From a virus (Duplodnaviria > Heunggongvirae > Uroviricota > Caudoviricetes): DNA of 64,000 bases. The notes under the pieces are model-generated. The model saw only the letters and a program-made list of their open reading frames with translations. It searched no databases and had not been told where the DNA came from. Shown piece after piece: positions 3,727 through 8,064 of the stretch. Both the position numbers and the translations under genes were made by a program. Location: IMG/VR virus record IMGVR_UViG_3300023174_000034, one strand, 5' to 3'. Each line of letters begins with the position of its first letter. The stretch's first letter is position 1.

Positions 3727-4458
3727 CTAAAACGTATAGTTAAAAGTTTCAATGATTTTTGCACAATGCTTGGCCACAAGATCGTGTGTGTGATTATTAT
3801 AGTAGGTTCTATAATCAGTTATACCACCGGTGTTTACTGGCAGTGTTGTAGCAATACGGTGTTCAACCTCTGGTGTTAGTTCGCCGGTGCTAATCAGCAT
3901 GTTGGTCAGGTCTTGTGCAACAGTTTCTGTTTTTCCAATTTGATCTGCATTTGCAGTATAGCACTTGGCAAAAAAACTGAACAGGTCCAGATCCTGTTCT
4001 TTCACAAGGTCCTCCCAAACATCTGCATCATATGTAATTGCTGAGTATGATCCAGATTTCCTATTTTGTTTTTCTTTTTCGTACTCTTTCAACCATACCG
4101 AATACATGCCTCGACGAAGTTGCCAAAGTTTTATTTTTGTCCATAAAGGTATATTCATTGCTATTTCAATTGATTTTTCAAAAGTAAAATCAGTGACATT
4201 GGTAAAATCTTTAATGGTATCTATTCTTATATCACGACACACATGCTCATAAGCACTTACATACCACGCCCACGGATTTCTAACAAACGTAAACACTTTT
4301 TGTCCAGGGCATGTGGTGTGTGCGCGGACTCGATGATCAGTGTCATCATAGTACACAGGCATGCCATCTAAGGGAGTACTAAGAGAACGGCAAACATCAT
4401 TTATCCATTTACCCCCAGTTTTGGGTATGTGTATGAATACTGACCTTGCTGTTCTCAC
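3727..4458 (-). CDS. Sulfotransferase-family protein (PAPS-dependent).
   Basis: N-terminal FIHIPKTGG resembles the sulfotransferase 5'-PSB loop. VRNPWAWYVSAYEH resembles the 3'-PB RxPxxRxxS motif. Confidence 0.5.
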   Translation of the reverse strand: MRTARSVFIHIPKTGGKWINDVCRSLSTPLDGMPVYYDDTDHRVRAHTTCPGQKVFTFVRNPWAWYVSAYEHVCRDIRIDTIKDFTNVTDFTFEKSIEIAMNIPLWTKIKLWQLRRGMYSVWLKEYEKEKQNRKSGSYSAITYDADVWEDLVKEQDLDLFSFFAKCYTANADQIGKTETVAQDLTNMLISTGELTPEVEHRIATTLPVNTGGITDYRTYYNNHTHDLVAKHCAKIIETFNYTF

Positions 4459-5273
4459 TTTAATCCTAATTCCTTACGAATTTTTGTAGCACTAATGTCT
4501 GTAACAGAATTATCAAACGACTCTTCGCCTGCGGTATATCCTACGCCACGGCCCCAACCAATATGCACAATGTTTGGAACAACTTGTATTTCGTATTGTC
4601 CTTGATACAATGGATCTAAGTCGCGTTTAATGAAGCTCTTGACTTTTTCTACTTCAAACGGATTACTACCTTGCCATCCTTGTACATCACGTACTTGAAT
4701 AACAACTTGTCCAGTCTTGGCCAACAGTCTTTCAAACAATGCTCGATGTCCATCATGCCACGGTTGCCATCGCCCTAGCATTTGCACAGTTTCTTTTTTC
4801 CAGTCAAACACAGGCCTGCGCCTATTTTCTAATAGATGATTGCTAACAAAATCTGCCCATTTATCTGCATCTTGTTCTGTAACTCGGAAATCATACACCT
4901 CGGGTTCTTGGAACATGGCATTTGTATCTGCGTACCGTCCTTCACGTATAGTGTCTGTCCATATAACCCAGTCTGCATGATAAAGATGACGCATTTCAGC
5001 CAGCGGTGCAACAAAATCTGCTATAGCATAATCTGTAGAGGCTTTGTCTGCCAGGTCGCGCATTCGCTGAGCTTGGCGAATTCGCCCTGCATGACTAAAA
5101 TCCCAATCGTTAAATTCAGCACGTACTTTATCAGCATTAAACCAGCTGACTGTACGGCCTTCTGCCCAGAGTAATTCTCTAAGTTTAGTTGCTAGTGTAG
5201 TTTTTCCTGAGCCTGGCAAGCCCATAATGAGTATACGTTGTGTCATGTAAATATTTACTAAATAGCTTATCAC
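4455..5273 (-). CDS. Fusion protein: N-terminal adenylylsulfate (APS) kinase-like P-loop domain plus C-terminal HxGH/ISxTxIR nucleotidyltransferase-like domain.
   Basis: Walker A IMGLPGSGKTTLA. Downstream FNADKVRAEF and DWDFSHAGRIRQ resemble CysC LDGDNVRHGL and DLGFSDADR. C-terminal WHDGH (HxGH) and ISATKIRKEL (ISSTxIR-like) motifs are typical of cytidylyl/adenylyl-transferases. ATP sulfurylase also carries HxxH. Confidence 0.5.
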   Translation of the reverse strand: MISYLVNIYMTQRILIMGLPGSGKTTLATKLRELLWAEGRTVSWFNADKVRAEFNDWDFSHAGRIRQAQRMRDLADKASTDYAIADFVAPLAEMRHLYHADWVIWTDTIREGRYADTNAMFQEPEVYDFRVTEQDADKWADFVSNHLLENRRRPVFDWKKETVQMLGRWQPWHDGHRALFERLLAKTGQVVIQVRDVQGWQGSNPFEVEKVKSFIKRDLDPLYQGQYEIQVVPNIVHIGWGRGVGYTAGEESFDNSVTDISATKIRKELGLK

Positions 5274-6661
5274 ACGGAATATTTCATATGAGATACAATG
5301 AACTAATTAGCGAAACACGTAGACTCGGGGGCTTTGTAGTCACCCCAGTAAACGTCCAAGATCAAGATATTGACGAGGCACAGGAACACAGCCCTGTGGC
5401 CAGTGCTGTCACACGCAGGATCATGACACAACGTCATGACCTATTGAGCAAATATGGCCCTGTGTCAGTCACCGCGGCCATTGACAATGTGGCTGATTAT
5501 GTGGGCGACGTTGACGAAATTGGATCAAGTGACGTCAGTGGCTGGGTCATGCAAGTTGAGCGTATGCTGAAAGAAAACCCACCAGAAGCATTCAGTGAAG
5601 CAATCAAGCTAAATGCTCCTGCTCGTGTCATACCACGCGATGAACTACAAGGCTATACTGATCGTATCAAGACTGGTACCAAGACCAAGCGTGACAAGTT
5701 TGCTCCCATCATCCATGGTAGCAATATCAAAGCAATCACACAAAGCGATGATCCAAATGACAAATGGGACCTAGACGATCTAGCCCGACAAATTACCACC
5801 CGTCCACGCACTATCTTGGGTACCAATGCCAAGATGGAAAAGTCAGCTACTGAAGGCGAGATCATTTATGATCTAACACTTCCTGCTCTCAGCGGCATTG
5901 TTGTAGACGAAGACACCGGCGACTTTGTAGAGATTACAACTTGTCCAGGTGCAGGCGCTTGCCAACTATTCTGCTATGCTAGAAAAGGTGGATATGTTAT
6001 GTTCCCTGCCAGTTCAATGAGTGCCGCACAAGCACTGAACTTCTTGGTCAACAATCCATCAGGATACACGGACAAAGTCAATGCTGAGATTTCTGCACTA
6101 AAGACAAAAACAGACAAGCACAGTATTCAATTGGTTGTGCGCTGGCATGACGCCGGTGACTTCTTCTCCAAAGAGTATTTGGATCTTGCCTACGGTGTGG
6201 CTCAGAAGAATCCAGACGTACAGTTCTATGCATACACCAAGATGGGTGATGTTGCCACAGCAGGTGGACCACCTAACTTTACCATGAACTTCAGTTCAGG
6301 TAGCAAACGTGGCGAGGAAAAGAAAGTTGAATTCCATCGCACACAAACCAACACACCAGTCAAGCAAGGTGTCACTGTGCCCAAAGACATGTTCTTTGAC
6401 CTGATTGCTCGCGATGGCAACAAGTTGATCAAGGATGCCAAAGGTCGCACTCAATTCAAAGATGATGCCAGCGTGGAAGAATTCAAGGCTCGTCTTGCAC
6501 AAAAGTACAAAGTGGATCCAGCTACCATCATCACATATGATCAAATGCTAGCCACTCCGCCAAGCAATACTCCGCACTGGAATGTTATTGTCCAGCCAGG
6601 TGCAGGCGATCGTGCGGCAAACCGTAAAGACGTGATAGACAGTTATTTGATGTTCCACTAA
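5240..6661 (+). CDS. Hypothetical protein. Likely true start near 5287 (MRYNELISE).
   Basis: 473-aa ORF with no recognised motif. Confidence 0.45.
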   Translation: MSCKYLLNSLSHGIFHMRYNELISETRRLGGFVVTPVNVQDQDIDEAQEHSPVASAVTRRIMTQRHDLLSKYGPVSVTAAIDNVADYVGDVDEIGSSDVSGWVMQVERMLKENPPEAFSEAIKLNAPARVIPRDELQGYTDRIKTGTKTKRDKFAPIIHGSNIKAITQSDDPNDKWDLDDLARQITTRPRTILGTNAKMEKSATEGEIIYDLTLPALSGIVVDEDTGDFVEITTCPGAGACQLFCYARKGGYVMFPASSMSAAQALNFLVNNPSGYTDKVNAEISALKTKTDKHSIQLVVRWHDAGDFFSKEYLDLAYGVAQKNPDVQFYAYTKMGDVATAGGPPNFTMNFSSGSKRGEEKKVEFHRTQTNTPVKQGVTVPKDMFFDLIARDGNKLIKDAKGRTQFKDDASVEEFKARLAQKYKVDPATIITYDQMLATPPSNTPHWNVIVQPGAGDRAANRKDVIDSYLMFH

Positions 6662-6681
6662 CATTAACACTAAGTACGAGT

Positions 6682-8064
6682 ATGCACAATCTAGCTAGGA
6701 TATTGCTTACTCGCAATCAATTCCGCCCTTCGTCCACTGCGTTCAGCGATCTAACTGGATCAATCACTTACGAAGATTTAGAACGCAAGAGCCAGCAGTT
6801 TGCAGGATGGTTACGCAGAGAAGGATTACAACCCAATGACAGGGTTGGTGTTGTACTAGCTAACAGCATTGATGCAGTTATTGTGTTCCTTGGCACAGTA
6901 CTTGCTGGTGGCATAGCAGTAATGACCAGTCCAGTAGGACGCAAAGAAACACTTGACTATAAAATTTCACATGTGGCACCTTGTATTGTGATTGATGAAA
7001 ATAATGTAACAGATGTACTTGGACAAAGCCGACAGTTTCCTCCAGACTTCAATGTAAGCGGTGGCGGTAAAGATGTTGCATTTATGTTATGGACCAGCGG
7101 CACAACAGGACACAGCAAGGCAGTCATGCACTCACATGACAATGTGTTTGCACAATCCGTGGCCACCAGTGAGCTTACCTTAGGTCTCAATTCTACAGAC
7201 CGTATCTACTCCACAGCCAAATTAAGTTTTGCATATGGCATTATCTACAGTTTGTTTGGCGCCATGTGGGTTGGTGCAGAAGCATACCTGGATAGCGGAT
7301 TGTCAACACCGGGTCGCGTCGAACATATCATTCGAGACTTTGCTCCAACTGTTTTCTTTAGTGTTCCAATTATCTATTCACAGTTGGTTTCAAGACTTGA
7401 TCCTACCACAACAATTAAATTTATAAGTTCAGGCGATAGATTACCACAGGCATTGCTAGACCGTTGGAAGTCCAAGATAGGTACCAGCATACACAACTGT
7501 TTGGGCACCACAGAGTGTTTGACTTCGTTTATTTTCAATCATGGCAACACATCTAGCATAGGGCAAGCAATACCCATGTATCAAACCAGGATAGTTGACA
7601 AGCAAGGTGTGGTACTGGCTCCTGGACAAACAGGACAGCTACAAGTTCGTGCTCCTAGTGCTGGTGTGGGTTATTGGATGGACCCAATTTGGTCACAACG
7701 ATACTTCAATGATTGGATTACCACTGGCGATATATGTTGGCAAGATCCGCAAGGTGATCTGCACCATATGGGACGAGACGGAGATGTGATCAAGATAGCA
7801 GGATATTTTATCAACCCCAGTGAAATAGAAGAAACTCTGGAAGCCTTTCCTGGTGTAGAACAATCAGCAGTGATTGGAGTACAAAACGAACACGGCATTG
7901 AACGCATTGAAGCATACGTGGTAGGACCAGTCGAGTCACGTGATTTACGTGCATGGATGCACAAACATCATGAACGCCAGGCCTGTCCACGAAAAATTCA
8001 CATTGTGCCGGAACTGCCACGTACGGATAACGGCAAAATTCAGCGGTACAAACTGCGGGCATAA
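6682..8064 (+). CDS. AMP-dependent synthetase/ligase (acyl- or aryl-CoA ligase-like adenylate-forming enzyme).
   Basis: AMP-binding motif LWTSGTTGHSKAV, a YGTTE-like LGTTE, and TGDICWQDPQGDLHHMGRDGDVIKIAGYFINPSEIE matching the C-terminal TGD...GRxDDxIKxxG..I.P.EIE block. Confidence 0.8.
   Translation: MHNLARILLTRNQFRPSSTAFSDLTGSITYEDLERKSQQFAGWLRREGLQPNDRVGVVLANSIDAVIVFLGTVLAGGIAVMTSPVGRKETLDYKISHVAPCIVIDENNVTDVLGQSRQFPPDFNVSGGGKDVAFMLWTSGTTGHSKAVMHSHDNVFAQSVATSELTLGLNSTDRIYSTAKLSFAYGIIYSLFGAMWVGAEAYLDSGLSTPGRVEHIIRDFAPTVFFSVPIIYSQLVSRLDPTTTIKFISSGDRLPQALLDRWKSKIGTSIHNCLGTTECLTSFIFNHGNTSSIGQAIPMYQTRIVDKQGVVLAPGQTGQLQVRAPSAGVGYWMDPIWSQRYFNDWITTGDICWQDPQGDLHHMGRDGDVIKIAGYFINPSEIEETLEAFPGVEQSAVIGVQNEHGIERIEAYVVGPVESRDLRAWMHKHHERQACPRKIHIVPELPRTDNGKIQRYKLRA

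What the first reader, a model, noticed from the sequence alone, without database searches (positions are those of the whole stretch)
3727..8064. Putative sulfation / small-molecule activation cluster: sulfotransferase + APS-kinase/HxGH-nucleotidyltransferase fusion + adenylate-forming ligase
Two genes are on the minus strand. One is a sulfotransferase-like protein with a FIHIPKTGG 5'-PSB loop and an RNPWAWYVS 3'-PB motif. The other is a 272-aa fusion. Its N-terminus looks like adenylylsulfate kinase (GLPGSGKTT, DKVRAEF, DWDFSHAGRIRQ; compare CysC GLSGSGKST, DNVRHGL, DLGFSDADRKEN). Its C-terminus carries the HxGH (WHDGH) and ISxTxIR (ISATKIRKEL) signatures of the nucleotidyltransferase fold, which ATP sulfurylase shares. 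This could be a minimal PAPS-synthase-like enzyme supplying the adjacent sulfotransferase. Immediately downstream, on the plus strand, lie a 473-aa unknown and an AMP-dependent ligase. The ligase may activate the carboxylate substrate or acceptor. Phage-encoded sulfotransferases with their own PAPS supply are rare. They would imply sulfation of a host or phage glycan, lipid or peptide.
Basis: partly seen in the sequence, partly recalled or inferred. Interest (0 to 1): 0.65.

Follow-up and report, generated by a model that had tools for sequence, protein, structure and literature searches.

The report
Phage sulfotransferase plus PAPS-making fusion
A large T4-like phage carries a sulfotransferase gene translationally coupled to a compact "APS-kinase + mini-nucleotidyltransferase" fusion. 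The fusion probably makes the activated sulfate donor PAPS, it is very widespread, and nobody has characterised it, so its chemistry is worth testing.

Summary
The four ORFs and every quoted motif are present.

**Kinase half of the fusion.** It is APS-kinase-like: it passes Pfam's threshold, and 46 of 50 Foldseek hits are APS kinases. The catalytic Asp and the Arg/Phe/Arg APS-binding residues are invariant. However, the first Asp of DGDN is Asn and the lid is half-length.

**Nucleotidyltransferase (NT) half.** By sequence it is a truncated NadM-type NMNAT relative, not an ATP sulfurylase. Yet it is fused to APS-kinase domains in three architectures, one with a canonical full-length CysC.

**Linkage.** Sulfotransferase–kinase adjacency recurs in at least six phage lineages. 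Here the fusion's stop codon overlaps the sulfotransferase start (GTGA).

**What is not part of it.** The GP88-domain protein and the aryl-CoA-type ligase are not demonstrably involved. They form a separate plus-strand unit, syntenic only in one close relative.

**Distribution.** The fusion is abundant: about 8000 protein clusters, more than 580 viral contigs, and chromosomes of Alphaproteobacteria. Most copies have no sulfotransferase nearby.

**Verdict.** This is a real two-gene sulfation module. The "minimal PAPS synthase" idea is plausible but unproven.

The parts
3727..4458 (-). Sulfotransferase (Sulfotransfer_2-like), 243 aa, GTG start. 5'-PSB loop H10-I-P-K13-T-G-G16; 3'-PB F58-V-R60-N-P62...S68.
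4455..5246 (-). Kinase-nucleotidyltransferase fusion, 263 aa from the ATG at 5246. The mechanical ORF extends to a GTG at 5273.
   Evidence: ORF. Homologues begin at MTQRILIMG. PHROG 10255 'kinase' matches full length, 2.4e-47. AF2 pLDDT 88.6.
4812..5246 (-). APS-kinase-like P-loop kinase domain (residues 1-145). P-loop G9-LPGSGK15T; N37-A-D39-K-V-R42; F50; R55; short lid 98-115.
   Evidence: PF01583 40.1 bits against a gathering score of 21.1, profile positions 5-90/152. PDB 2yvu 4e-7. Foldseek: 46 of top 50 are APS kinases, best 4bzp 1.5e-7. D39/R42/F50/R55 invariant and aligned to CysC D480/R483/F492/R497.
4458..4799 (-). Mini HIGH-superfamily nucleotidyltransferase domain (residues ~150-263). 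GRWQPW-H164-DG-H167, NPF, GWGRGVGY, ISATKIR.
   Evidence: Profile of 43 domains against PDB: NadM NMNATs best (1f9a 4e-12). No ATP sulfurylase among the 60 best shown (71 matched at E<=10). NCBIfam NMNAT models hit 41-43 of 43 members but at about 25 bits against cut-offs of 127-181. PF01467 hits 43/43, PF01747 hits 5/43 weakly.
4455..4458 (-). GTGA overlap: the stop codon of the fusion overlaps the start codon of the sulfotransferase (translational coupling).
   Evidence: Sequence read directly.
5288..6661 (+). GP88-domain protein (PF17338). It is adjacent and divergent, and probably NOT part of the module. Its N-terminus MRYNELISE matches the motif of the three ORFs at 184-3726.
   Evidence: Pfam 6.3e-31. 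N-terminal motif found only in these four ORFs of the window. No PDB relative. Found near the fusion in only 4 of 80 other viral loci, 5-7 kb away.
6682..8064 (+). ANL-family adenylate-forming ligase (aryl-acid-CoA-ligase-like). It is adjacent, and membership in the module is not supported.
   Evidence: PF00501 3e-59 plus PF13193. Best PDB hit is benzoate-CoA ligase 2v7b, 1e-62. Syntenic only in close relative L010, at 46% identity. Absent from 80 fusion loci and 80 sulfotransferase loci.
8091..8111 (+). Terminator-like hairpin with a T-run that closes the plus-strand GP88-ligase unit.

Best explanation
The minus-strand pair 3727-5246 is a two-gene sulfation module. It sits in antisense orientation inside a row of plus-strand virion-protein-like genes of a T4-like phage.

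Proposed mechanism:
- Step 1 (inferred, about 0.3): the C-terminal mini-nucleotidyltransferase adenylylates sulfate with ATP to give APS. If it does not, APS comes from the host's CysDN or Sat.
- Step 2 (inferred from family, predicted fold and conserved acceptor-site residues, about 0.6): the N-terminal APS-kinase-type domain phosphorylates the 3'-OH of APS to give PAPS.
- Step 3 (inferred from predicted fold and invariant PAPS-binding motifs, about 0.8): the translationally coupled sulfotransferase moves the sulfuryl group from PAPS to an acceptor. Judging from the company its homologues keep, the acceptor is most likely a sugar or glycan.

What is shown: the genes, the motifs, the predicted folds, the stop/start overlap, the recurrent sulfotransferase-kinase adjacency, and the recurrent NT-APS-kinase domain fusions.

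What is not shown: any enzymatic activity, the acceptor, and any role for the neighbouring GP88 protein or ligase.
For: Sulfotransferase:
- H-x-P-K-T-G-G and F-V-R-x-P...S are invariant in 16 homologues down to 22% identity.
- The profile's best PDB hits are sulfotransferases, aligned on those same motifs.

Kinase:
- PF01583 scores above its gathering threshold.
- 46 of the 50 best Foldseek hits are APS kinases or PAPSS.
- The residues that bind APS in M. tuberculosis CysC are D480, R483, F492 and R497 (PMC4373884). They align to D39, R42, F50 and R55, which are invariant in 59 sequences.

Linkage of sulfotransferase and kinase:
- GTGA stop/start overlap.
- Sulfotransferase homologues at 30-33% identity also sit one gene or less from a kinase or fusion gene in L008, L009 and L095.
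- L201, L146/L152, L132, L131 and L136 add further lineages.
- In 5 of 6 viral lineages where both occur within 10 kb, they lie within 2 kb. By my own binomial arithmetic P is about 0.002 if placement were random.
- L131 holds the fusion together with eight or more sulfotransferase paralogues.

NT coupled to APS kinase, seen as three fusion architectures:
- phage-type kinase followed by NT;
- NT followed by phage-type kinase (P0345);
- NT followed by a canonical full-length APS kinase (P0401, PF01583 212 bits). This last form has 37 full-length orthologues in marine metagenomes.

The catalytic motifs HxGH and ISxT..R of the NT are invariant or nearly so.
Against: - The NT domain has no detectable specific similarity to ATP sulfurylase. 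Its relatives are NadM NMNATs.
- The kinase deviates from canonical APS kinase. The first Asp of DGDN is Asn (N37), and D87A at that position abolished APSK activity in human PAPSS1 (PMC8528679).
- The lid is about 18 residues rather than about 35, and Pfam covers only profile positions 5-90 of 152.
- NCBIfam equivalog cut-offs are missed by far.
- 72 of 80 viral sulfotransferase loci have no kinase within 10 kb.
- 79 of 80 viral fusion loci have no sulfotransferase of this family.
- Sano-like phages, DLP_6 and about 200 alphaproteobacterial genomes carry the fusion with no conserved sulfotransferase neighbour. So the fusion's general role is not 'feeding this sulfotransferase'.
- The commonest neighbours of the fusion in phages are IscA/IscU Fe-S scaffold genes.
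Confidence: 0.5

Rival explanations
1. The kinase domain is an APS kinase that only tops up PAPS from host-made APS. The NT domain is not a sulfurylase. It has another catalytic or regulatory role, for example binding or processing an adenine nucleotide such as PAP or APS.
For: - All the kinase and sulfotransferase evidence above applies.
- The NT has no ATP-sulfurylase signal.
- Kinase-only genes sit next to sulfotransferases in L008 and L146/L152. Kinase-only proteins are common and occur in RsoM2USA and phiRSL1. So the partner the sulfotransferase needs is the kinase, not the NT.
Against: - The NT is fused to APS-kinase domains in three independent architectures.
- It keeps its catalytic HxGH and ISxT..R motifs. 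This is the usual signature of consecutive steps.
- No alternative substrate is suggested by any data.
Confidence: 0.25
2. The fusion is a NadR-like NAD salvage enzyme: a kinase acting on a riboside plus an NMN adenylyltransferase. It would rebuild NAD+ during infection and would be unrelated to the sulfotransferase.
For: - The NT's closest relatives in PDB and NCBIfam are NadM NMNATs and NadM-Nudix enzymes.
- JGI named one homologue 'nicotinamide riboside kinase'.
- Some Sano-like phages have a COG3236/GTP cyclohydrolase II-type gene next to it.
Against: - The kinase half is APS-kinase-like, not RNK-like, by sequence and predicted structure.
- NMNAT models match only the first 60-70 residues, at about 25 bits against cut-offs of 127-181.
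- About 25 NadM residues between beta3 and beta4/5, and the C-terminal subdomain, have no counterpart.
- The NT is fused to a canonical CysC.
- Adjacency to sulfotransferases is repeated.
Confidence: 0.08
3. The fusion is an assimilatory 'cysC-type' auxiliary metabolic gene. It pushes host sulfate towards PAPS, sulfite, sulfide and cysteine to feed Fe-S cluster assembly. The neighbouring sulfotransferase is an independent moron.
For: - Viral cysC is a commonly listed but unvalidated AMG (PMC12713726, PMC8066274).
- IscA and IscU genes are the most frequent close neighbours of the fusion in 80 viral loci, 12 and 11 loci at about 1 kb. They also flank it in L008, L009 and L095.
- Most fusion loci lack a sulfotransferase.
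Against: - In this window the two genes overlap by GTGA.
- Sulfotransferase-kinase adjacency recurs across lineages.
- No PAPS reductase or other cys gene was seen in the parts of the window that were scanned.
Confidence: 0.12
4. The fusion makes a different 3'-phospho-adenylylated compound by the same NT-then-3'-kinase logic. This could be a CoA-synthase-like PPAT/DPCK analogue feeding the neighbouring acyl-CoA-type ligase, or a novel donor used by the sulfotransferase-fold enzyme.
For: - PPATs are the second-best PDB group for the NT profile.
- The half-length lid could admit a 5' substituent larger than sulfate.
- An ANL ligase lies 1.4 kb away, and a ligase follows the fusion in two bacterial loci.
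Against: - Both sulfate-binding arginines of APS kinase are invariant.
- No dephospho-CoA kinase appears in the Foldseek top 50.
- The ligase is on the other strand in its own unit and is not conserved with the fusion.
- The P0401 family uses a canonical APS kinase.
Confidence: 0.05

Closest known systems
Bifunctional PAPS synthase of animals (PAPSS1/2: N-terminal APS kinase + C-terminal ATP sulfurylase)
   Same: - Same domain order: P-loop APS-kinase-type domain first, HxGH nucleotidyltransferase-superfamily domain second.
- The kinase half is structurally closest to APS kinases, including the PAPSS1/2 kinase domains.
- Same proposed two-step logic.
   Different: - The second domain is about 115 aa and NadM-like. 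It is not the roughly 400-aa ATP sulfurylase with a PUA-like domain, and no PF01747 membership was found.
- The kinase has Asn for the first Asp of DGDN and a half-length lid.
- The whole protein is 263 aa, against about 620 aa.
Bacterial sulfation cassettes that pair a sulfotransferase with their own sulfate-activation genes (NodH with NodPQ; RaxST with RaxPQ). These are recalled from memory and were not tested here.
   Same: A sulfotransferase is encoded next to dedicated PAPS-supply genes, so sulfation does not depend on housekeeping sulfur assimilation.
   Different: - Those systems use CysD/CysN-type sulfurylase plus canonical CysC. This one uses a compact kinase-NT fusion.
- The element here is a phage, and the acceptor is unknown.
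NadR / NadM (NMN adenylyltransferase with or without ribosylnicotinamide kinase)
   Same: - The NT domain shares GRxQPxHxGH and the NPF motif with NadM, and NadM gives its best sequence matches.
- Like NadR, it is a kinase + NT protein.
   Different: - The kinase is APS-kinase-type, not RNK.
- The domain order is reversed relative to NadR.
- The NT lacks about 25 internal residues and the C-terminal subdomain of NadM.
- It scores far below the curated cut-offs.
Viral 'cysC' auxiliary metabolic genes reported in viromics
   Same: Probably the same gene family. Sources name homologues 'adenylylsulfate kinase'. cysC is listed as an aquatic viral AMG, 'not validated'.
   Different: The literature I found treats it as an assimilatory APS kinase. 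The fused NT domain, the link to sulfotransferases and the deviations from canonical CysC are not discussed in the papers I retrieved.

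Membership tests
PAPS-dependent sulfotransferase superfamily (Sulfotransfer_2-like) | 5'-phosphosulfate-binding loop (PKxGxT type) | tested here: met
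   H10, P12, K13, T14 and G16 are invariant in 16 homologues. They align to PKSG of SULT7A1.
PAPS-dependent sulfotransferase superfamily (Sulfotransfer_2-like) | 3'-phosphate-binding motif (R...S on strand/helix) | tested here: met
   F58, V59, R60 and P62 are invariant and S68 is at least 90% conserved. They align to VRNP...S of SULT7A1.
PAPS-dependent sulfotransferase superfamily (Sulfotransfer_2-like) | Sulfotransferase fold | tested here: met
PAPS-dependent sulfotransferase superfamily (Sulfotransfer_2-like) | Passes Pfam PF03567 gathering score | tested here: not met
   15.5 bits against 22. Four distant homologues do carry PF03567.
PAPS-dependent sulfotransferase superfamily (Sulfotransfer_2-like) | Catalytic base (His) and PAPS-dependent sulfuryl transfer | tested here: inconclusive
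   A His (H41) is present in most but not all homologues. Activity cannot be tested with these tools.
APS kinase (CysC, PF01583) | Family profile match | tested here: met
   PF01583 40.1 bits against a gathering score of 21.1, but only profile positions 5-90 of 152. NCBIfam apsK scores 29.9 against a cut-off of 138.7, which is not met.
APS kinase (CysC, PF01583) | APS-kinase fold | tested here: met
   The kinase half of the AF2 model has pLDDT 90-98. 46 of 50 top Foldseek hits are APS kinases, with target-normalised TM 0.6-0.8.
APS kinase (CysC, PF01583) | APS-site residues: catalytic Asp, two Arg on the phosphosulfate, stacking Phe | tested here: met
   D39, R42, F50 and R55 are invariant and align to D480, R483, F492 and R497 of Mtb CysC.
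APS kinase (CysC, PF01583) | LDGD(N) motif with both aspartates | tested here: not met
   The motif is (F/L)-N37-A/G-D39. The first Asp is Asn in at least 90% of sequences. D87A at this position abolished APSK activity in hPAPSS1 (PMC8528679).
APS kinase (CysC, PF01583) | Full-length lid with Arg/Lys and second stacking Phe | tested here: inconclusive
   There are about 18 residues between beta4 and the conserved Pro, against about 35 in canonical enzymes. Equivalents of K562 and F576 cannot be assigned with confidence.
ATP sulfurylase (Sat / PAPSS C-terminal domain, PF01747) | Sequence membership | tested here: not met
   No ATP sulfurylase among the 60 best PDB matches shown for the NT profile (71 matched at E<=10). 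PF01747 is hit weakly by 5 of 43 members, best 3.6e-4. No sulfate adenylyltransferase model appears in the 25 NCBIfam families shown, of 29 matched.
ATP sulfurylase (Sat / PAPSS C-terminal domain, PF01747) | HxxH/HxGH and ISxTxxR-type motifs | tested here: met
   H164-D-G-H167 and I-S-A-T-K-I-R are conserved. They are shared by the whole HIGH-NT superfamily, so they do not discriminate.
ATP sulfurylase (Sat / PAPSS C-terminal domain, PF01747) | Sulfate adenylylation activity | not testable with these tools
   Needs an enzyme assay.
NadM-type NMN adenylyltransferase / NadR | GRxQPxHxGH and NPF motifs | tested here: met
   Aligned to 1f9a, 2qjt and 4yp7.
NadM-type NMN adenylyltransferase / NadR | Curated family cut-offs and full-length coverage | tested here: not met
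   About 25 bits against cut-offs of 127-181, matching only residues 9-79. NadM residues about 76-108 and the C-terminal ~30 residues have no counterpart.
NadM-type NMN adenylyltransferase / NadR | RNK-type kinase partner (NadR) | tested here: not met
   The kinase half matches APS kinases. The NadR model TIGR01526 scores only E 0.013, on the P-loop.
ANL adenylate-forming enzymes (the 460-aa neighbour) | AMP-binding N- and C-domains | tested here: met
   PF00501 3e-59 and PF13193 3e-14. Best PDB hit is benzoate-CoA ligase, 1e-62. Membership in the sulfation module is not supported.

The most novel reading that the evidence does not exclude
The kinase-NT fusion is a previously unrecognised, non-orthologous PAPS synthase. 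A ~115-residue NadM-derived mini-nucleotidyltransferase does the job of ATP sulfurylase and hands APS to a streamlined APS kinase. The invention would be shared by very abundant freshwater T4-like and jumbo phages, by Alphaproteobacteria such as Bradyrhizobium and Xanthobacteraceae, and, with a canonical kinase, by a marine bacterial lineage.
Probability: 0.3. Interest if true: 0.8.

Novelty: new variant of a known kind. Interest (0 to 1): 0.6.

Why it matters
- **A possible third kind of sulfate-activating enzyme.** If the fusion makes PAPS from sulfate, it would join Sat and CysDN, and would be by far the smallest. It is also one of the most conserved auxiliary genes of a very abundant group of aquatic phages: about 80% identity across thousands of protein clusters.
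- **Re-reading a common annotation.** The 'viral cysC' label used in viromics would need reinterpreting.
- **Phage-driven sulfation.** Phages would be able to drive sulfation of glycans or other targets without relying on host PAPS. Some carry eight or more sulfotransferase paralogues beside the fusion.
- **Practical use.** A 263-aa one-polypeptide PAPS generator would help in vitro sulfation, where PAPS cost is limiting.
- **If it is not a sulfurylase.** A very widespread, strongly conserved NT domain coupled to APS kinase would still lack a known reaction.

Tried and rejected
1. **Near-identical DNA in the phage collection.** None found. tblastn of the sulfotransferase against phages also found nothing.
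2. **N-terminal extension of P0123, P0124, P0289 and P0318.** It carries PR(S/C/T)GS and R..Q..S motifs, and I asked whether it is a second sulfotransferase family fused to the kinase. It looks like one by eye, but Pfam, the PDB profile search and hhalign against the sulfotransferase alignment were all non-significant. I left it as a lead.
3. **The ~200-aa ORFs upstream of the fusion in L004 as hidden sulfotransferases.** Only one weak Sulfotransfer_3 hit, E 0.018. Not pursued.
4. **Conserved neighbourhood of the chromosomal copies in 80 alphaproteobacterial loci.** None found.
5. **Neighbourhood of the marine NT-CysC family.** The conserved neighbours are a POT-type transporter, a secreted repeat protein and TPR proteins. 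No sulfur genes.
6. **GP88 and the ligase as module members.** Rejected. Synteny is seen only with close relative L010. There is no co-occurrence elsewhere. They are on the other strand with their own terminator.
7. **Genome-collection scan with the wide NT alignment.** It failed for lack of conserved stretches. I repeated it with a narrower alignment.
8. **Fold search of the NT domain alone.** Not possible. The whole-protein search was dominated by the kinase half.
9. **Literature on GP88/PF17338 and on phage sulfotransferase plus APS kinase.** Nothing relevant found.

Full report
**1. What is there**

- a 243-aa ORF at 3727-4458(-);
- a 272-aa ORF at 4455-5273(-);
- a 473-aa ORF at 5240-6661(+);
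- a 460-aa ORF at 6682-8064(+).

All quoted motifs are present. Homologues of the second ORF start at MTQRILIMG, so its real start is probably the ATG at 5246, giving 263 aa. I use that numbering below. Its TGA stop overlaps the GTG start of the 243-aa ORF (GTGA), the usual arrangement for translational coupling.

The window has no near-identical DNA in the phage collection. It encodes:
- rIIA and rIIB, a DNA ligase, tail and virion proteins;
- a virion protein 43% identical to one in T4-like cyanophages such as S-CAM1;
- a GT4 and a DXD glycosyltransferase, a carbamoyltransferase-like protein, superoxide dismutase and rubrerythrin.

It is a large T4-like phage from an uncultivated lineage.

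**2. The 243-aa protein is a sulfotransferase-fold protein**

Pfam alone is weak: PF03567 scores 15.5 bits against a gathering score of 22. PHROG 3347, 'galactose-3-O-sulfotransferase', scores 2e-5. The protein database holds only 15 homologues.

In their alignment the 5'-PSB loop (H10-x-P12-K13-T14-G-G16) and the 3'-PB element (F58-V-R60-x-P62, with S68 at least 90% conserved) are invariant, down to 22% identity. A profile of the family finds sulfotransferases as its best PDB matches, SULT7A1 and HS6ST, aligned on exactly these motifs.

The AlphaFold model is good (pLDDT 83.4, pTM 0.82).
- Foldseek's 50 best PDB hits are all PAPS-dependent sulfotransferases. The statistics are modest, with E from 2e-3 and TM 0.3-0.5.

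I take the fold and the cofactor site as established in silico. The acceptor is unknown.

**3. The kinase half of the fusion**

Residues 1-145 match PF01583 above its gathering score (40.1 against 21.1). Only profile positions 5-90 of 152 are covered, and the NCBIfam equivalog cut-offs are missed by a wide margin. The best PDB sequence match is an APS kinase, 2yvu at 4e-7.

The AF2 model of the fusion has pLDDT 90-98 over this half. Of the 50 best Foldseek hits, 46 are APS kinases or PAPSS kinase domains. The best is M. tuberculosis CysC, 4bzp, at 1.5e-7 with target-normalised TM 0.68-0.80.

The CysC structure paper (PMC4373884) lists these contacts:
- Asp480 of LDGD sits next to the acceptor hydroxyls.
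- Arg483 and Arg497 bind the phosphosulfate.
- Phe492 and Phe576 sandwich the APS adenine.
- Lys562 and Arg559 lie in the lid.

The first four align to D39, R42, F50 and R55, and all four are invariant in 59 diverse family members.

There are two deviations:
- The first Asp of the DGDN motif is Asn (N37) in at least 90% of sequences. D87A at that position abolished APSK activity in human PAPSS1 (PMC8528679).
- The lid between beta4 and the conserved Pro is about 18 residues instead of about 35. The lid Lys and the second Phe therefore cannot be assigned.

So this is a streamlined relative of APS kinase. Its acceptor pocket still looks built for an adenosine 5'-phospho-anion. APS is the most likely substrate but is not proven.

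**4. The nucleotidyltransferase half**

I cut out the C-terminal domain from 43 diverse family members. G13, R14, Q16, H19, H22 (the GRxQPxHxGH motif), G87, R88, G91 (GRxxGY) and R112 (ISxT..R) are invariant. This looks like an active enzyme, not a relic.

By sequence the profile's best PDB matches are archaeal-type NMN adenylyltransferases: 1f9a at 4e-12, 2qjt at 5e-11 and 4yp7 at 9e-10. PPAT, PanC and RibF follow. No ATP sulfurylase appears among the 60 best matches shown; 71 matched in all at E≤10.

NCBIfam NMNAT models are hit by 41-43 of the 43 members. But the scores are about 25 bits against cut-offs of 127-181, and only the first 60-70 residues match. PF01747 (ATP-sulfurylase) is hit weakly by 5 of 43.

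Relative to NadM, about 25 residues between beta3 and beta4/5 and the whole C-terminal subdomain are missing. From memory, that missing segment carries the nicotinamide-binding helix; I could not check this.

The domain is therefore neither a member of the ATP sulfurylase family nor a bona fide NMNAT. It is a minimal NadM-derived HIGH-superfamily nucleotidyltransferase with an unknown, probably small, acceptor.

**5. Evidence that the parts work together**

(a) Sulfotransferase and kinase.
- Distant sulfotransferase homologues (30-33% identity) in L008, L009 and L095 also lie one gene or less from a kinase-only gene or a fusion gene.
- There they sit inside sugar-modification clusters: DegT aminotransferase, epimerase/dehydratase, PIG-L and polysaccharide deacetylases, further Sulfotransfer_2 genes, and IscA.
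- L010 and L011 repeat the window's arrangement.
- Of 80 IMG/VR loci selected on the sulfotransferase, 8 (6 lineages) have a kinase within 10 kb, and in 5 of the 6 lineages it lies within 2 kb. The ±2 kb zone is only 20% of the sampled span, so random placement gives P of about 0.002. This is my own binomial arithmetic.
- L131 holds the fusion plus eight or more sulfotransferase paralogues, a cytidylyltransferase and a glycosyltransferase-like gene.
- L201 has a sulfotransferase overlapping the fusion's start.

(b) NT and APS kinase. The exhaustive representative search found 2069 relatives at E≤1e-3 and 952 at E≤1e-10. The forms seen were fusions, kinase-only proteins and NT-only proteins, plus:
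- the reversed order, NT followed by kinase (P0345);
- P0401, in which the same NT domain precedes a canonical full-length APS kinase (PF01583 212 bits, with LDGDN and a full lid).

P0401 is not a one-off. Thirty-seven full-length orthologues (62-99% identity) occur on marine metagenome contigs that look cellular. Three independent fusion architectures between this NT and APS-kinase-type domains are strong evidence for coupled function. Making the kinase's substrate, APS, is the simplest reading.

**6. What limits the claim**

The fusion is far more common than the sulfotransferase:
- 7998 of the 8000 scored protein clusters matched it, the listed ones at about 80% identity, on contigs up to 328 kb.
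- More than 580 viral contigs carry it.
- It occurs in Sano-like siphophages, Stenotrophomonas phage DLP_6 and Ralstonia jumbo phages.
- 208 stretches in species-representative genomes encode it, mostly in Alphaproteobacteria such as Bradyrhizobium, Xanthobacteraceae and Hyphomicrobiaceae, with no conserved neighbourhood.

In 80 viral fusion loci only one has a sulfotransferase of this family. The commonest close neighbours there are IscA and IscU scaffold genes, radical SAM/SPASM proteins, PhoH and a clamp loader. So the fusion's general job is wider than feeding this sulfotransferase. Supplying PAPS for assimilation is a real rival.

Viromics papers already list 'cysC' as an aquatic viral AMG, explicitly 'not validated'. 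I found no paper on the fused NT domain or on its link to sulfotransferases.

**7. The GP88 protein and the ligase**

The 473-aa ORF carries PF17338 (GP88; function unknown, no PDB relative). It most likely starts at 5288 with MRYNELISE. The same N-terminal pattern, M-[KR]-x3-E-[FIL]-I, begins the three plus-strand ORFs at 184, 1161 and 2836, and no other ORF in the 64 kb. It resembles the T4 internal-protein capsid-targeting sequence. The exact T4 sequence is from memory; the concept is in PMC3012670 and PMC10229621.

The minus-strand sulfotransferase-fusion pair therefore interrupts a plus-strand row to which the GP88 gene belongs.

The ligase is a genuine ANL enzyme, nearest to benzoate- and anthranilate-CoA ligases. 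It follows GP88 by 20 bp and is closed by a terminator-like hairpin at 8091-8111.

Both genes are syntenic only in the close relative L010, where the ligase is 46% and GP88 91% identical. The ligase appears in none of the 160 other viral loci. GP88 appears in 4, at 5-7 kb distance. I do not count either as part of the module.

**8. Verdict**

- There is a real, translationally coupled sulfotransferase + APS-kinase-type module.
- The 'ATP-sulfurylase-like' reading of the second domain fails as a family assignment. It survives, and is even strengthened, as a functional hypothesis because of the NT-CysC fusions.
- The four-gene 'cluster' shrinks to two genes.

My estimates:

| Claim | Probability |
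|---|---|
| The 243-aa protein is a PAPS-dependent sulfotransferase | 0.8 |
| The kinase half makes PAPS from APS | 0.6 |
| The NT half makes APS from sulfate | 0.3 |

This is a new variant of a known kind of system. It is of moderate to high interest because the fusion family is very large, strongly conserved and biochemically untested.

Noticed in passing
window 15481-15932 (+): A permuted (two-piece) tmRNA gene: Rfam RF04321 at 96.6 bits against a gathering score of 47, E 1.7e-17. ARAGORN also flagged it. A phage-encoded permuted tmRNA hints at a host among Alphaproteobacteria, some Betaproteobacteria or cyanobacteria (from memory). That fits the cyanophage-like virion protein.
   Followed up: partly
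window 184-1164, 1161-2834, 2836-3726, 5288-6661 (all +): Exactly four ORFs in the 64 kb begin with M-[KR]-x3-E-[FIL]-I: MKSHEFITE, MRYHEIIEA, MKINEIINE, MRYNELISE. This resembles the T4 internal-protein capsid-targeting sequence. 'KQGVAE' occurs four times inside two of them and fits a (hydrophobic)-x-E prohead-protease site. These may be packaged and ejected proteins, GP88 included.
   Followed up: partly
window 3562-3726 (+); L099 11490-12263 (-): The last ~55 residues of the 296-aa ORF (ENFADGRHPEDKGD...HWLANMKSGRAK), just after a KQGVAE site, are almost identical in an otherwise dissimilar protein of another phage. That protein also lies close to a sulfotransferase homologue, one gene away, among genes with MRxxEFI-type N-termini.
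   Followed up: partly
L131 3478-19094: An IMG/VR contig with eight or more Sulfotransfer_2-like paralogues. Alongside them are the kinase-NT fusion, a cytidylyltransferase, a subtilase-like protein and glycosyltransferase-like genes. It looks like a phage 'sulfation island'.
   Followed up: partly
L175-L254 (80 viral loci); L008, L009, L095: IscA-like and IscU-like Fe-S scaffold genes are the most frequent close neighbours of the fusion: 12 and 11 of 83 loci, about 1 kb away. They sit between or beside the sulfotransferase and the kinase in three loci. The reason is unknown.
   Followed up: no
P0123, P0124 (L005-L007 8001-9371), P0289, P0318: Some family members carry a ~190-250-aa N-terminal extension with a PR(S/C/T)GS loop and an R..Q..S..A element. 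These look like Stf0/Sulfotransfer_3 PAPS-binding motifs. Pfam, the PDB profile search and hhalign gave no significant support.
   Followed up: yes
L255-L291 (marine metagenome contigs): A family of 311-aa proteins made of the mini-NT plus a canonical APS kinase, found on AT-rich contigs that look cellular. It is usually next to a divergently oriented POT/PTR2-type transporter and a large secreted repeat protein.
   Followed up: partly
L015-L094 (e.g. L038 Bradyrhizobium sp. PUT101, L056 Chelatococcus caeni): The kinase-NT fusion is a chromosomal, stand-alone gene in many Alphaproteobacteria, with no conserved neighbourhood. One variant (P0278) has an N-terminal DUF4118 membrane domain.
   Followed up: partly
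window 19207-20211, 26360-27091, 39691-40635, 44568-45137, 20903-21367 (+): The phage also encodes a GT4 glycosyltransferase, a DXD (Gly_transf_sug) glycosyltransferase, a carbamoyltransferase N-domain protein, an Fe/Mn superoxide dismutase and a rubrerythrin. The carbohydrate enzymes could relate to the sulfotransferase's acceptor.
   Followed up: no
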